Source of the DNA: Terriglobia bacterium
Lineage (GTDB): Bacteria > Acidobacteriota > Terriglobia > 20CM-2-55-15
NCBI GenBank assembly: GCA_965218585.1
Contig: CBDCLE010000001.1
Location: forward strand, 192,001 to 256,000
Length of the DNA: 64,000 nucleotides
Direction of reading: 5' to 3'
This document shows, piece by piece, positions 60,581 to 64,000 of this stretch. The notes beneath the pieces are model-generated. The model was not told where the DNA came from. It saw only the letters and a list, made by a program, of their open reading frames with translations, and made no database searches. How positions within the stretch are numbered: the stretch's first letter is position 1; the number at the start of each line of letters is the position of its first letter. Position numbers and translations under genes: made by a program.

Positions 60581-62515
60581 AAAAGCGTTGCTCCATCAGT
60601 CCTTCAGTGCTTCGTCCCTTAAAACAATACGAAACAAAGAGAATACGGGTTACGCGGCGATGGCGTCAAGGATCTCGCGTACAGTGCCAGTGAGTTCGTT
60701 CAAGGGGAAGGGTTTTCGGAGAAGTCCATCAATACCAATAGTTTTGATCGCAGCGAGCCGTTCCGGGGCCGCATAACCGGTTGCAACGAGTACCTTGGTG
60801 TGGGGATGAAGCTGTCGAATGGATTTCAATGCCGTCAGGCCGTCCATGACCGGCATGATCATGTCGAGTATGACGAGATCGACATCAGGGGTTATCTTCT
60901 GCAGTGCCTCTGCTCCGTTGGAAGCCGTTAGAACCGGATACCCCGAATGAGACAGTGAGGTTTCCATCAACTCCAGCAGGTGCGGCTCGTCGTCTACCAC
61001 GAGGATCGTTTCGCCGCCTTCCGCCATCGCTGATTCGACAATGTCCGTTGTTCTGATCTTGTTCTTGGCAGGGGGAAACCAGAGACGGAACTCCGTCCCT
61101 TTACCCGGCGAGGTCTCCACATCGATACTGCCGCCATGGCGTTCGATGGTGGCGTAGGCCATGCTGAGTCCAAGGCCCGTACCCTGGCCGCGTTCCTTCG
61201 TTGTAAAAAATGGATCGAAGATCTTATCGAGAACTTCGGGTTCAATCCCCGGACCCGTGTCCCGAACGCTGAGTCTCGTGCCTTCGTTTTCTGCCCGTGT
61301 CTGGAACGTGATCGAGCCTTCTCCCTCCATGGCATCGCGGGCGTTGACGGCGAAATTGATCAACATCTGGGTCAGTTCGCCTTCATCGGCCTCGACCATC
61401 GGTACGTTCTCGTCAAGATCGAGCCGGACCTGGACCGTGCGTTCCAGCGTTTCCCCGAGCAGTTGCTCGGTAGAGCGCACGACCTCGTTCAGGATCAACG
61501 GTTCAACAGAGGGCGGCTCGTCCCGCGCCATTGACAGGAGCTGTCCGGTCAGCTGTGCGCCACGCCTGGATGCGTCCACGATTGCGTCCAGTCTTGGACC
61601 ACGTTTTTCCGGCGTGTCCCGCAACTGAATCAATTCTGCAGTGGGTAGAATGATGCCCAATATGTTGTTGAAGTCATGGGCGATCCCGCTGGCCAGGGTC
61701 CCGATGGACTCCATTTTCTGACTGCGGACCAGCTGGTGCGATAGCTTTTTCTGTTCGGTGATGTTTCGAACGATGACGGAGACTCGAAGCGAATCTGCGA
61801 CGGCGCTGACCAGTCCGACGAGCGTCTGACCGCTCGAAGAACGAAACTCCGCTTCGAAATCCTGAACCGAACCTTCTTTCCGGACACGCGATTCGAAACG
61901 TTTCCCAGCTTCCGGATCCATGAACAATTCCTTAAGGTCGATCCATGTTTCCGAAGGGGACGAGATGAGGCCGGCCGCTTGATTCGAGTCGATTATCCGG
62001 AGATCGGGCGTGCAGATATAGACCGCATCCTGCATCCGTTCGACAAACGTTCTGTACTTCGCTTCAGATGCCTTCAATTCTTCATAGAGCTCGATGTTGG
62101 AGAGTGCGCTCGAGAGTTGGGGAGCCACCATCATTAAGGTGCGCTGCTTCGTCGGCGAAATTGACGACGGCGCTTCATCGCTCAACATCAAGAGAGCCTG
62201 GCAGGTATCGCGGGCAACCAGTGGGACGAGGAGCCAGGACCGAAGCCCGCGAGGGAAGGGCCATTCGGTTTCGAGGGTTTCTTGATCGAGATCCTCGATT
62301 ACGATCGGCCGGGCATTGTCGTTGAAGCGGGCGGGAAGCACGGACAGATCAAACGACGCGGGGAAGTTCGTCTCACCGAACACCTTCGAGACAGCCTGCA
62401 GGTCATACGCTATAAGGAAGGACGCCCCTTTGTCGGCTGTTGCCAGGAGGAAAATCTCCCGACAACAACCCATTCAACGTAGCTGCGTTGAATTCAAAGA
62501 CAAAGGAGCACGTAA

Positions 62516-63577
62516 ATGAAACAGGCCAAGTATATCGGCATGGATGTGCACCAGGCAACGACGGTGGTGATGGTCTTAAACGCAGACGGCAAACTGGTCT
62601 GGGAAAAGATCGTAGAGACCCAGGCCGGGCCAATCATTGATTTGCTGGAGAGTCTGAGTGGTGAGCTGCACGTGACGTTTGAAGAAACCACGCAGGCCGA
62701 ATGGCTCTACAACGTGGTCCGGGGATATGTGAGCGAAGTGATCGTGTGTGATCCCAGACGGAACAAACTGCTCAGTGACGGGTCCAAGACCGACCGGGTG
62801 GATGCCCTGAAACTGGCCGAGCTGCTCCGGGCCGGATGGCTGCGGTCGGTCTACCACGGGCACGATGCGACGCGGACGTTGAAAGAACTGGTCCGCGGAT
62901 ATGAGACCTTGACCCTGGATACGCAGCGGACGATGGTTCGGATCAAGGCAATGTATCGAGGACGTGGGATCCGGACGCCGGGCCACGGCGTCTACCTCCC
63001 ATCGCAGCGGGAACACTGGATCGAACAGCTCGCCAATACCGGTGCACGGCGGCGTACCGGATGGTTGTATGAGGAGCTGGATCATCTGAGAGGGTTAAGA
63101 AAAAAAGCGAAGCTGGCGATGTTAACCGAGAGCCGCAAGCATCGTGCGGTGGGGATATTGCAGACGATTCCCCAGTTGGGACCGATACGTTGCGCCTTGA
63201 TTGTAGCGACGGGGGACACCCCGCATCGATTTCGAACCAAACGCCAGCTCTGGAACTACAGCGGTCTGGCCGTGGCAATGCACATGAGTGCGGAGTATGA
63301 GCAGGAAGGGAGTCGTGTGGTACGTCGTCGAAAGCCGATCGCCACGCGGGGACTGAACCGCAACGGCAACCGACGTTTGAAAGGTGTGTTCATCGGGGCG
63401 GCGACCGGAGGCATGGGGGCCGAACCTTGGAAAAGCTACCTGGAGGGGCTCCAGAAAGACGGCAAGCGTAAGGAGATGGCTCGGCTGACACTGGCGAGGA
63501 AGATTGCAGCGACCGCACTGAAGATGTGGAAGAAAGGAGACACGTTTAACGCAAAGAAACTGAACTTGGCGACATAG
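62516..63577 (+). CDS. IS110-family DEDD recombinase/transposase
   Basis: YIGMDVH (D), FEET (E), KTDRVDA (D,D); Tnp domain TIPQLGP...YSGL...HMSA with the putative catalytic Ser; RBS AGGAG. Confidence 0.95.
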   Translation: MKQAKYIGMDVHQATTVVMVLNADGKLVWEKIVETQAGPIIDLLESLSGELHVTFEETTQAEWLYNVVRGYVSEVIVCDPRRNKLLSDGSKTDRVDALKLAELLRAGWLRSVYHGHDATRTLKELVRGYETLTLDTQRTMVRIKAMYRGRGIRTPGHGVYLPSQREHWIEQLANTGARRRTGWLYEELDHLRGLRKKAKLAMLTESRKHRAVGILQTIPQLGPIRCALIVATGDTPHRFRTKRQLWNYSGLAVAMHMSAEYEQEGSRVVRRRKPIATRGLNRNGNRRLKGVFIGAATGGMGAEPWKSYLEGLQKDGKRKEMARLTLARKIAATALKMWKKGDTFNAKKLNLAT

Positions 63578-63940
63578 CCGTTTCCAGACTTCTGCCGACA
63601 GCGCGAGGCATTCGACCGCTCGTCGTCGGTGAGGCGTCGGAACGGTAGGGTCGAGGGTGAGGATCCGATACGCGGTTGGCACACAGCGCTTGCTGAAGGC
63701 CCATGTAATACTCTATCCCCCCTCGCACGACCTGGAAAAGCGATAGCCCTCGAGGCTCAGATAGAACCGTGGTCGGCAATCACGACCCCTTTGCGCTTTT
63801 CAGTTTCTCGAAACCACACCACGTTGTGATGAGTGATCGACTTCTCTGCGATGCCGGATCAACAGTTCGTCTCAACGGAGACAGGGGCTGGCTGCCACGA
63901 CAGTGTTGGGTCCGGTGGTCCGCTCGGCGGGGACGTGTTT
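63578..63940 (+). ncRNA. Putative bridge/seek RNA in the IS110 right end (boundaries approximate)
   Basis: Target-complementary GATACGCGGTTG (63667-63678), donor-identical ATAGAACC (63761-63768), and several hairpins. Confidence 0.6.
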
Positions 63941-64000
63941 CTCTTGACAGCCCCTTCCATAGAACCGCGTCTCATGGCTTCGACGGTACAGGGTCGCGTG

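What the first reader, a model, noticed from the sequence alone, without database searches (positions are those of the whole stretch)
63578..63966. IS110 right end encodes a candidate bridge RNA whose guides match this very insertion site
Seen in sequence: removing 62471-63966 gives the empty site ...GACAAC-AACC-GCGTCTC. Inside the element's roughly 390-nt right end, GATACGCGGTTG (63667-63678) matches the reverse complement of that site (GAGACGCGGTTG) at 11/12. The last matched base exists only in the rejoined site. Further 3', ATAGAACC (63761-63768) is identical to the element's last 8 nt including the core (63959-63966). It lies next to a hairpin (GGTCG/CGACC, 63771-63787) inside a larger stem (63732-63742 with 63794-63803). 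Weaker candidates for the other two guides are CCGACAGC (63595-63602) or CGACCGC (63613-63619) for the left target, and ACGTTG (63821-63826) for the right donor. Established: IS110-family recombinases use a non-coding bridge/seek RNA with target- and donor-binding loops; in IS621 the left guides are identical to the top strand and the right guides are reverse complements. Inference: the order (target then donor) and the polarity here fit that model. The layout is unusual, with the RNA downstream of the transposase as in IS1111-type elements but no visible sub-terminal IRs. This could be an uncharacterised programmable recombinase ortholog. Caveat: 63593-63603 can also pair with 63671-63681, so part of the match may be stem.
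Basis: partly seen in the sequence, partly recalled or inferred. Interest (0 to 1): 0.85.

Follow-up and report, generated by a model that had tools for sequence, protein, structure and literature searches.

The report
Bridge RNA of IS1111-like element

Summary
The core of the finding is real, but the anatomy needed correcting. The element is a 1,557-bp IS110-family insertion sequence of the IS1111 type. It spans 62409-63965, with the core dinucleotide AC at 62407-08 and 63964-65. There are 16 near-identical copies in this genome. The "AACC repeat", the "empty site" and three of the "weaker guides" are therefore artefacts. The supposedly missing subterminal inverted repeats do exist (62411-21 and 63953-63).

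GATACGCGGT (63667-76) is the reverse complement of core plus right target flank. ATAGAAC (63761-67) equals the right end plus core. I add the left target guide, GTAATAC (63705-11).

Across 18 related IS types the guides change together with the flanks (permutation 0 of 100,000). The same holds for 11 hold-out types found with a covariance model. Core and donor guide covary (AC, TC, CG, AG), and helices show compensatory changes. The guide order, right guide 5' of left, is the published IS1111 seekRNA order.

The right donor guide was not identified, and transcription is not shown. Verdict: a new member of a known kind, of moderate interest.

The parts
62407..62408 (+). left copy of the core dinucleotide AC (target-side junction LT-AC)
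   Evidence: AC-GC precedes the left inverted repeat in 16 of 16 copies. Only the model 'left flank + one AC + right flank' restores the host reading frame.
62409..63965 (+). the insertion sequence as inserted DNA (1,557 bp: GC + IRL ... IRR + AC). Equivalently 62407-63963, because one AC copy belongs to it.
   Evidence: 16 copies in the genome, boundaries from the flanks, orthologous empty sites. Assembly contigs of DNA runs break at 62405-62407 and 63963-63970.
62411..62421 (+). left subterminal inverted repeat TATAAGGAAGG; its TATAAG is the candidate -10 of a circle-junction promoter
   Evidence: 9 of 11 complementary to 63953-63963 (read). A homologous IRL is present in related types. The promoter role is inference.
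62472..62493 (+). perfect 8-bp hairpin in the left end, upstream of the transposase start; role unknown
Evidence: listed as a stem on the minus strand.
62516..63577 (+). DEDD transposase/recombinase, 353 aa. D10, E56, D93, D96 and S258 (motif GLAVAMHMSA) are the candidate catalytic residues.
   Evidence: PF01548 E 3.5e-17 and PF02371 E 8.3e-9. The residues are invariant in 6 relatives. PDB sequence matches: ISCro4 9t56 E 1.3e-9 and IS621 8wt6 E 3.5e-7.
63652..63725 (+). target-binding loop: P1 63652-57/63720-25, P2 63661-64/63715-18, inner hairpin about 63678-63701
   Evidence: On 18 IS types P1 is 100% paired and P2 98.6% paired, with 3 of 4 P2 pairs changed on both sides. 0 of 500 shuffles reach the covariation score.
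63667..63676 (+). right target guide GATACGCGGT = reverse complement of AC + CGCGTATC (core + right flank consensus)
   Evidence: Right flanks of 15 parsed copies match 5.9 of 8 on average, and 2 copies match 8 of 8. Covaries with the right flank in 18 types: own longest common run 7.39 against 3.37 for cross pairs, 0 of 100,000 permutations. Hold-out set of 11 types: 5.27 against 3.35, 0 of 100,000.
63705..63711 (+). left target guide GTAAT + core AC (same sense as the top strand of the left flank)
   Evidence: Equals the left flank consensus. 15 types: 4.27 of 7 own against 1.81 cross, 0 of 100,000. The core part is AC, TC, CG or AG in step with the element's core.
63728..63775 (+). donor-binding loop: closing stem CGACC 63728-32 / GGTCG 63771-75, inner hairpin AGCC 63745-48 / GGCT 63754-57, 5' strand 63733-44, 3' strand 63758-70
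   Evidence: Closing stem 97.2% paired with GC:9/AU:8 at one pair. Inner hairpin 98.6% paired with 2 pairs changed on both sides. The 5' partner pairs at 4 or more of 5 positions in 18 of 18 types.
63761..63767 (+). left donor guide ATAGA + core AC, identical to the element's last bases 63959-63965
Evidence: It changes with the right end: ATAGA-TC, ATAGA-CG, ATAGA-AG, ATAGG-AC, ATAGG-AG and ATGGA-AG types each have the same letters in the guide and at the end. Exceptions: L122 and the relic L020.
   Evidence: It is the minimum-free-energy fold of the window RNA. Base stem 83% paired with 4 sequences changed on both sides at one pair. Hairpin 54% paired on a poorly aligned stretch. It excludes the closing stem above.
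63944..63949 (+). TTGACA, candidate -35 box facing outward; 18 nt from TATAAG of the left end once the ends are joined in a circle
   Evidence: TTGAC is conserved at this place in all related types seen. The promoter role is inferred from what PMC11187229 (section 4) states for the family.
63953..63963 (+). right subterminal inverted repeat CCTTCCATAGA
63964..63965 (+). right copy of the core (AC here)
   Evidence: AC in 10, AA in 5 and GC in 1 of the 16 copies
63966..63973 (+). right target flank CGCGTCTC (7 of 8 to the guide's complement); host DNA, not element

Best explanation
Window 62409-63965 is one of 16 copies of an IS110-family insertion sequence of the IS1111 type: subterminal inverted repeats, with the long non-coding region downstream of the DEDD recombinase gene. 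That region encodes, on the + strand, a two-loop bridge RNA, called seekRNA in the IS1111 literature.

The first loop (63652-63725) reads the target. Its 5' strand, GAUACGCGGU, pairs with the top strand of core plus right flank (AC-CGCGTATC). Its 3' strand, GUAAUAC, has the sense of left flank plus core and so pairs with the bottom strand. The second loop (63728-63775) reads the element's own joined ends. AUAGAAC has the sense of the right end plus core.

The recombinase then exchanges strands at the shared core AC. The excised circle (...CCATAGA-AC-GC-TATAAGG...) is inserted into sites resembling GTAAT-AC-CGCGTATC, in one orientation, leaving one AC at each junction.

Shown here: boundaries, target consensus, guide-flank covariation, core covariation and compensatory changes in helices.

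Inferred: that the RNA is made and bound by the recombinase, the circle intermediate and its junction promoter, the chemistry, and the recognition of the left end (right donor half).
For: - Family: PF01548 and PF02371. D10, E56, D93, D96 and S258 are invariant among 6 relatives. ISCro4 and IS621 are the only PDB sequence matches.
- Copies and flanks: 16 copies. Left flanks end in (A)AT-AC and right flanks start CGCGTAT. 15 parsed sites match the guides at 3.2 of 5 (left) and 5.9 of 8 (right) on average. Weak left halves tend to go with strong right halves and the reverse.
- Empty site: of 4 joining models, only left flank + one AC + right flank gives a single tblastn segment of 207-216 aa across the joint with all 4 same-genus orthologs. 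The other 3 models split into two frames. In the distant group, 19 uninterrupted sites have one AC and 0 have ACAC.
- Covariation: searches list 91 distinct insertions of about 25 guide types. Permutation tests give 0 of 100,000 for RTG (18 types) and for LTG (15 types).
- Single-base examples: CGCGTAT/GATACGCG against CGCTTAT/GATAAGCG; CACC/GGTGG against CAGC/GCTGG; TAATCAG/CTGATTA against TAATCGG/CCGATTA.
- Hold-out: model R1 finds only the 16 IS copies in the own genome. It finds matches in 9 of 150 other genomes sampled from the phylum. 11 new types from these give 0 of 100,000. They add cores CG and AG, with matching LTG and LDG.
- Structure: 97.4% of cells paired, 9 pairs with changes on both sides, and 0 of 500 shuffles reach the covariation score. 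Slid controls pair at 35-51%.
- Literature fit: the right guide lying 5' of the left guide is the order reported for IS1111 seekRNAs (PMC11187229, sections 4 and 9). Donor nucleotides in a more complex loop are noted for IS1111 orthologues (PMC11208160, passage).
Against: - No direct evidence of an RNA. Only assembled contigs could be laid. Two metatranscriptome runs of one study hold 95-99% relatives of parts of the transposase gene and the non-coding region, which may be DNA carry-over.
- No Rfam family matches.
- The window RNA folds no better than shuffles (z = 0.06).
- No promoter-like site on the + strand inside the element.
- The right donor guide was not found. The best candidate (GGAAAAGC, 63734-41, against GCTATAAG) pairs at 4.44 of 8 own against 4.21 cross, with 3,484 of 50,000 permutations at least as high.
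- Two mutually exclusive folds of the donor region both have some support.
- In core-TC types the right target guide still ends in GU, which fits AC and not TC.
- 2 of 11 hold-out types fit poorly: L148, inserted in another copy, and L153.
- The related types are kin, so the permutation figures overstate independence.
Confidence: 0.88

Rival explanations
1. Only the first loop is a functional RNA: a short seekRNA of about 80 nt that reads the target, as purified for ISEc11, ISKpn4 and ISPa11. The element's ends would be recognised by the protein through the subterminal inverted repeats. The ATAGAAC match would then be a by-product, or part of a precursor or terminator.
For: - PMC11187229 (sections 9, 10) reports 82-96-nt seekRNAs with two target matches that suffice for transposition, and describes no donor guides.
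- The first loop here is 74 nt (63652-63725).
- No right donor guide could be shown.
- The base stem 63736-42/63794-800 is followed by a U-rich stretch.
Against: - The donor-side match changes with the element's end and core in at least seven states: ATAGA-AC, -TC, -CG, -AG, ATAGG-AC, ATAGG-AG and ATGGA-AG. A by-product would not track these.
- The helices around it show compensatory changes.
- PMC11208160 predicts donor loops in IS1111 orthologues.
Confidence: 0.08
2. The conserved right end acts as DNA, not RNA. It would hold recombinase-binding sites plus an internal copy of the target that pairs DNA to DNA, or be a leftover of earlier insertions.
For: No transcript is shown. No internal promoter is seen. 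The fold is not unusually stable.
Against: - Compensatory changes keep five helices paired in 18 types, including G-U pairs (UG:8 at one P2 pair), which are neutral only in RNA.
- One guide is antisense and the other sense to the target, as in the solved IS621 complex. Both read on the transposase strand.
- Experimental proof of RNA exists for relatives (PMC11187229, PMC11208160).
Confidence: 0.03
3. One reading: element 62471-63966 with a 4-bp AACC core, left target guide near 63595-63619 and right donor guide ACGTTG 63821-26.
For: AACC occurs at 62467-70 and 63963-66.
Against: - All 16 copies share 62411-62470.
- The regions 63578-63650 and 63806-63900 are poorly conserved among types.
Confidence: 0.01

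Closest known systems
IS1111-family insertion sequences with seekRNA (ISEc11, ISKpn4, ISPst6, ISPa11; Siddiquee et al. 2024, PMC11187229; abstract and sections 4, 6, 9, 10, 13 read)
   Same: - DEDD transposase of 330-350 aa (here 353).
- Subterminal inverted repeats of about 11 bp.
- Long non-coding region downstream of the gene.
- Site- and orientation-specific insertion without a real duplication.
- The RNA segment complementary to the top strand lies 5' of the segment matching the top strand.
- Natural retargeting among relatives by changes in just these segments.
- REP-like targets in some members (the distant group here).
   Different: - The bases between the two inverted repeats in the joined ends are 4 (AC + GC), not 10 (7 left + 3 right).
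- The serine motif is GL-V----SA instead of GL-P----S(T)G.
- At most 28% protein identity to any plasmid-borne relative.
- A donor-side guide is evident here, whereas that paper describes none.
IS621 / IS110-group bridge RNA (Durrant et al. 2024, PMC11208160, passages read; Hiraizumi et al. 2024, PMC11208158, search listing only)
   Same: - Two loops, one for the target and one for the donor.
- Left guides in the sense of the top strand and including the core; right guides antisense.
- A 2-nt core shared by donor and target.
- ATA...TAT flanking the donor core, as the short inverted repeat reported for IS110 donors.
   Different: - The RNA is in the right end, not the left.
- The right guide precedes the left guide in the loop.
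- The right target guide is 8 nt plus core, longer than recalled for IS621 (recall, not checked here).
- The core is AC here (CT in IS621, recalled) and varies among relatives (AC, TC, CG, AG).
- Protein identity is about 26%.
ISCro4 transposase (PDB 9t56) and ISAzs32 (named in PLSDB annotation, and in the legend of Extended Data Fig. 10 of PMC11208160)
   Same: ISCro4 is the best solved-structure match by sequence (E 1.3e-9). ISAzs32 is the best named plasmid hit (26.5% identity, E 6e-14).
   Different: Both are remote. Neither their RNAs nor their ends were compared here.

Membership tests
IS110 family (DEDD recombinases) | N-terminal RuvC-like DEDD domain | tested here: met
   PF01548 E 3.5e-17, residues 7-146. 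D10, E56, D93 and D96 are invariant in 6 relatives and align with ISCro4.
IS110 family (DEDD recombinases) | C-terminal Tnp domain with the conserved serine in G--P----SG | tested here: inconclusive
   PF02371 E 8.3e-9. The motif is G250-L-A-V-A-M-H-M-S258-A: the spacing is kept and S258 is invariant, but P is V and G is A. HMMER aligned ISCro4's SG elsewhere because of a 5-residue insertion.
IS1111 group | long non-coding region downstream of the transposase gene | tested here: met
   388 nt from the stop (63577) to the element end (63965), against 107 nt upstream.
IS1111 group | subterminal inverted repeats (7-17 bp per PMC11208160; 11-13 bp per PMC11187229) | tested here: met
   62411-21 against 63953-63, 9 of 11. 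Homologous repeats occur in all related types.
IS1111 group | terminal extensions beyond the repeats of 7 (or 6) bp left and 3 bp right | tested here: not met
   Only GC plus one core copy lies outside the repeats: 4 bp in all. One relative (G157 types) has T instead of GC.
IS1111 group | transposase clusters with IS1111 relatives in a phylogeny | not tested
   No ISfinder reference set was at hand. Only E-values are available: ISAzs32 6e-14 against IS621 4e-6.
bridge RNA / seekRNA systems | two RNA segments matching the two strands of the target, covarying with the target among relatives | tested here: met
bridge RNA / seekRNA systems | donor-binding loop with left and right donor guides | tested here: inconclusive
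   The left donor guide is met. The right donor guide is not shown.
bridge RNA / seekRNA systems | core shared by donor and target, one copy at each junction | tested here: met
   At the right junction 6 of 16 copies carry AA or GC instead of AC.
bridge RNA / seekRNA systems | the RNA is transcribed and binds the recombinase; circular intermediate | not testable with these tools
   Only contigs of public runs could be laid.
Rfam families | match to a curated covariance model | tested here: not met
   3 chance-level hits at E 0.89-9, none in 63578-63966.

The most novel reading that the evidence does not exclude
These elements form a separate, Acidobacteriota-wide branch of RNA-guided recombinases in which:
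- both loops are built alike (right guide 5', left guide plus core 3');
- the two inverted repeats sit only 4 bp apart in the circle;
- the catalytic motif is GL-V----SA;
- the core is naturally reprogrammed (AC, TC, CG, AG).

The duplicated CACGACC (63726-32 and 63781-87), both copies complementary to GGTCG 63771-75, would be a switch between two folds of the donor loop. The one-sided core variants (right junction 6 of 16, left 0 of 16) would record which strand pair is exchanged or kept.
Probability: 0.25. Interest if true: 0.55.

Novelty: new member of a known kind. Interest (0 to 1): 0.4.

Why it matters
RNA-guided IS110/IS1111 recombinases are being developed as programmable genome-rearrangement tools, so natural variety is useful. 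This genome and its relatives supply a ready comparative set:
- 16 insertions of one element with graded mismatches;
- about 25 naturally retargeted guide types;
- four different cores.

The set shows which guide positions tolerate mismatch and that the core can change.

For genome annotation, the corrected anatomy gives a recipe for finding the ends and targets of this acidobacterial IS clade. The recipe is core, then GC, then IRL ... IRR, then core. It also explains a disrupted sensor kinase gene in the window.

It does not reveal a new principle.

Tried and rejected
- Core GC with a palindromic target ATAC-GC-GTAT: rejected by the frame test (model M3).
- No duplication, with all flank letters kept: rejected (model M4).
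- Second empty-site test at copy L011: the right flank has no match in the 4 relatives, so it is uninformative.
- The search for related loci with the single protein found nothing. The 6-protein alignment worked.
- Rfam: nothing.
- Promoter scan: no + strand site inside the element.
- Sequencing runs: all runs offered were assembled contigs. No RNA ends, strand, circle junction or empty-site joint was seen. RNA-run contigs ending at 63737 overlap another contig and look like assembly branch points. One 165-nt skip in one DNA contig of depth 2 was ignored.
- Perfect unoccupied targets: 0 sites with up to 1 mismatch to the 14-mer predicted from the guides. There are 7 with up to 2 mismatches, one of them the junction of copy L011, against a mean of 20 for shuffled 14-mers. 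No conclusion was drawn.
- AA-core copies as one lineage: not supported. They lie on at least three SNP backgrounds.
- Right donor guide: registers 1-3 of the 5' strand of the donor loop were tested, and none was significant. The segment after hairpin 2 and the CTAT after the left target guide do not covary with the left end (read).
- Literature: searches (terms 'seekRNA'+'IS1111'; 'IS1111'+'bridge RNA'+'donor-binding loop'; 'Acidobacteria'+'IS110'+'insertion sequence') found no paper describing this acidobacterial clade or its RNA. A 2012 survey of mobile elements in Acidobacteria (PMC3469429) was seen in the listing only. Supplementary tables of PMC11208160 and PMC11187229, which list ISfinder elements with predicted RNAs and targets, could not be seen and may include relatives.

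Rows dropped:
- In some searches my pattern missed L016, L036, L132 and L134.
- L135's right end was mis-detected and set aside.
- Types without a flank were left out of the respective test.
- 101 parsed sites collapsed to 91 distinct.
- Of the non-own matches, I looked at 17 loci. I dropped L140 and L149 (no scaffold in the orientation used, short contigs) and the duplicates L147, L152, L150 and L155.
- I did not look at L154, L158, L160, L162 and L164.
Full report
WHAT IS THERE

The ORF 62516-63577 (+) encodes a 353-aa protein with the two domains of IS110-family recombinases: PF01548, E 3.5e-17, and PF02371, E 8.3e-9. Its only relatives among solved structures are the ISCro4 and IS621 transposases (E 1.3e-9 and 3.5e-7). 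The best plasmid-borne relatives are at most 28% identical.

The window's genome (4.55 Mb, 26 contigs) holds 16 copies that are practically identical. Related loci bear titles of Terriglobia/Acidobacteriota metagenome-assembled genomes.

BOUNDARIES

- All copies share another 60 bases to the left.
- The constant part begins with TATAAGGAAGG at 62411 and is preceded by ACGC in 16 of 16.
- On the right the constant part ends with CCTTCCATAGA at 63963.
- The next two bases are AC in 10 copies, AA in 5 and GC in 1. Then comes a flank with consensus CGCGTAT.
- TATAAGGAAGG and CCTTCCATAGA are inverted repeats, 9 of 11.

The empty site was tested on the window's own insertion, which sits in a sensor kinase gene on the minus strand. 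Orthologous genes of four same-genus genomes were fetched. Four ways of rejoining the flanks were compared. Only 'left flank through one AC, then right flank from 63966' gives one uninterrupted protein match of 207-216 residues across the joint, with all four orthologs. The other three models break into two frames.

The inserted DNA is therefore 1,557 bp (62409-63965, or equally 62407-63963), and the core AC stands at both junctions. Contigs of public DNA runs break at 62405-07 and 63963-70, as expected for a repeat with these ends.

THE GUIDES IN THIS ELEMENT

With the right boundaries, the target is left flank-AC-right flank, with consensus (GT)AAT-AC-CGCGTAT(C).
This is the exact reverse complement of AC-CGCGTATC. 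Two copies (L007, L011) have all 8 flank bases, and the window's own flank has 7 of 8.
- A second segment, GTAATAC (63705-11), equals the consensus left flank plus core.
- Sites with a perfect left half tend to have a weak right half and the reverse (L003, L013 against L007). This is what two cooperating guides would allow.

COVARIATION

The non-coding end has relatives in 11 of 40 related genomes. A search with an alignment of six transposases gave 80 further loci. All share one junction rule: left flank-core-GC-IRL ... IRR(..ATAGA)-core-right flank.

In an alignment of the non-coding ends, a conserved scaffold brackets two variable segments exactly at 63667-76 and 63705-11. These segments change with the flanks:
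- CGCGTATC / GATACGCG here.
- CGCTTATC / GATAAGCG in the 82%-identical element.
- AACTTG / CAAGTT, ATCTTG / CAAGAT and CGCC.ATACC / GGTATAGGCG in the 64% group.
- CACCTATCT / AGATAGGTG against CAGCTATCT / AGATAGCTG, TTCACAGG / CCTGTGAA, TAATCAG / CTGATTA against TAATCGG / CCGATTA, and GGCCGATT / AATCGGCC in the 50% group.

Permutation tests:

| Test | Types | Own score | Cross score | Permutations at least as high |
|---|---|---|---|---|
| Right target guide, longest exact run with right flank, core excluded | 18 | 7.39 | 3.37 | 0 of 100,000 |
| Left target guide, matches of 7 in fixed register | 15 | 4.27 | 1.81 | 0 of 100,000 |
| Hold-out right target guide | 11 | 5.27 | 3.35 | 0 of 100,000 |

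The types are kin, so these figures overstate independence. The single-base compensations between close pairs are the more telling evidence.

In the distant group the target is a REP-like palindrome. 19 uninterrupted copies in the flanks carry a single AC, and none carries ACAC. This confirms the core rule independently.

HOLD-OUT TEST

A covariance model of both loops (130 positions, 21 pairs) finds exactly the 16 IS copies in the own genome, and nothing else. It finds matches in 9 of 150 other genomes drawn evenly from the phylum. Of 11 new IS types from these, none of which was used to build the model, 9 show the expected complement of their right flank. L148, which sits inside another copy, and L153 fit poorly.

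These types add cores CG and AG. In each, the left target guide and the donor guide end in the same two letters as the element's right end. Ends ATAGG or ATGGA are mirrored in the donor guide. Exceptions are L122 (guide ..GGAT, end ..GG-AA) and the truncated relic L020.

STRUCTURE

On 18 types:
- The outer helix of the first loop (63652-57/63720-25) is paired in 100% of cells.
- The second helix (63661-64/63715-18) is paired in 98.6%, with three of its four pairs changed on both sides, including G-C to U-G.
- The hairpin of the second loop (63745-48/63754-57) is paired in 98.6%, with two pairs changed on both sides.
- 0 of 500 shuffles reach the covariation score, and slid controls pair at 35-51%.

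For the donor region two folds compete.
It has base stem 63736-42/63794-800, 83% paired, and hairpin GGTCG/CGACC 63771-87, 54% paired on a poorly aligned stretch.
- The alternative is a closing stem CGACC 63728-32 with the same GGTCG 63771-75. It is 97% paired, with GC:9/AU:8 at one pair, and pairs at 4 or more of 5 positions in 18 of 18 types. It makes the donor loop a copy of the target loop, with two 12-13-nt strands around a hairpin.

I favour the second fold but cannot exclude a switch. The window RNA is not more stable than shuffles (z = 0.06). That is unremarkable for an RNA with large open loops, but it means stability gives no support.

WHAT IS NOT SHOWN

- The guide for the left end of the element (right donor half) was not found. 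The candidate GGAAAAGC (63734-41) pairs at 4.44 of 8 with its own left ends against 4.21 with others (3,484 of 50,000 permutations).
- Transcription is not shown. Only assembled contigs were available. Two metatranscriptome runs of one study contain 95-99% relatives of parts of the gene and the non-coding end. This is compatible with expression but not proof.
- No + strand promoter is predicted inside the element.
- By analogy with the family (PMC11187229, section 4), TTGACA 63944-49 would meet TATAAG 62411-16 across an 18-nt spacer in the circle. The -35 box is conserved in all types seen. This is inference.

COMPARISON WITH WHAT IS KNOWN

Siddiquee et al. (PMC11187229) showed for four IS1111-family members the following:
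- The region downstream of the transposase gene gives a 70-100-nt seekRNA that binds the transposase.
- It carries a top-strand complement 5' of a bottom-strand complement.
- It can be reprogrammed.

Durrant et al. (PMC11208160, passages) predicted bridge RNAs in the right end of 93% of IS1111-group elements. They noted donor-binding nucleotides in more complex loops.

The present element works like these and meets most family features. It departs in three ways:
- Only 4 bp lie between the inverted repeats in the joined ends, instead of 7 + 3.
- The serine motif is GL-V----SA.
- It is remote in sequence.

Placement in the IS1111 branch by phylogeny was not tested. The element is a new member of a known kind, and the clade appears widespread in Acidobacteriota.

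VERDICT

Confidence that this is a functional bridge/seek RNA gene is 0.88. Interest is 0.4.

Noticed in passing
window 60650-62406 and 63966 onward, minus strand: The insertion splits a hybrid sensor histidine kinase/response-regulator gene about 75-100 codons from its start. The listed 607-aa ORF borrows a false ATG at 62473 from inside the element. Orthologs in four same-genus genomes are intact (668-686 aa open frames).
   Followed up: partly
right junctions of the 16 copies (window 63964-65; L002, L007, L013, L014, L016, L015): The core at the right junction is AA in 5 copies and GC in 1, while the left junction is AC in all 16. The AA copies lie on at least three SNP backgrounds (63134, 63384, 63912), so they are not one lineage. 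The one-sidedness is unexplained. It may reflect targets with mismatched cores and which strand is kept.
   Followed up: partly
window 63726-63732 and 63781-63787: The 7-mer CACGACC occurs twice, and both copies are complementary to GGTCG 63771-75. Several distant relatives also repeat their own version (for example GACAACC twice in L104 and L127). This suggests two exclusive folds of the donor loop.
   Followed up: partly
L074-L135 (other Acidobacteriota): A roughly 50%-identical sister group of the element inserts into a REP-like palindromic repeat (..GGATAGATGTTGAGAAATCC.CTTCGC-AC-CACCTATCTC..), with up to a dozen or more copies per genome. Sub-variants whose guide differs by one or two bases sit in repeat variants with the matching change.
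   Followed up: partly
L148 (G078:C64): One relative is inserted inside the target-loop region of another copy of the same element, at a site that does not fit its own guide. This may be a tandem or a rearranged pair.
   Followed up: no
window 62472-62493: A perfect 8-bp inverted repeat (ATTCAACG..CGTTGAAT) lies in the left end, 23 nt upstream of the transposase start codon and conserved in all 16 copies. Function unknown. It could affect read-through transcription or translation.
   Followed up: no
L141, L147, L152, L157 (G157): In the types with core CG, a single T stands between core and left inverted repeat, where all other types have GC.
   Followed up: no
own genome, all contigs: No unoccupied site within one mismatch of the 14-mer predicted from the guides remains. 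Only 7 sites lie within two mismatches, against a mean of 20 for shuffled 14-mers.
   Followed up: partly
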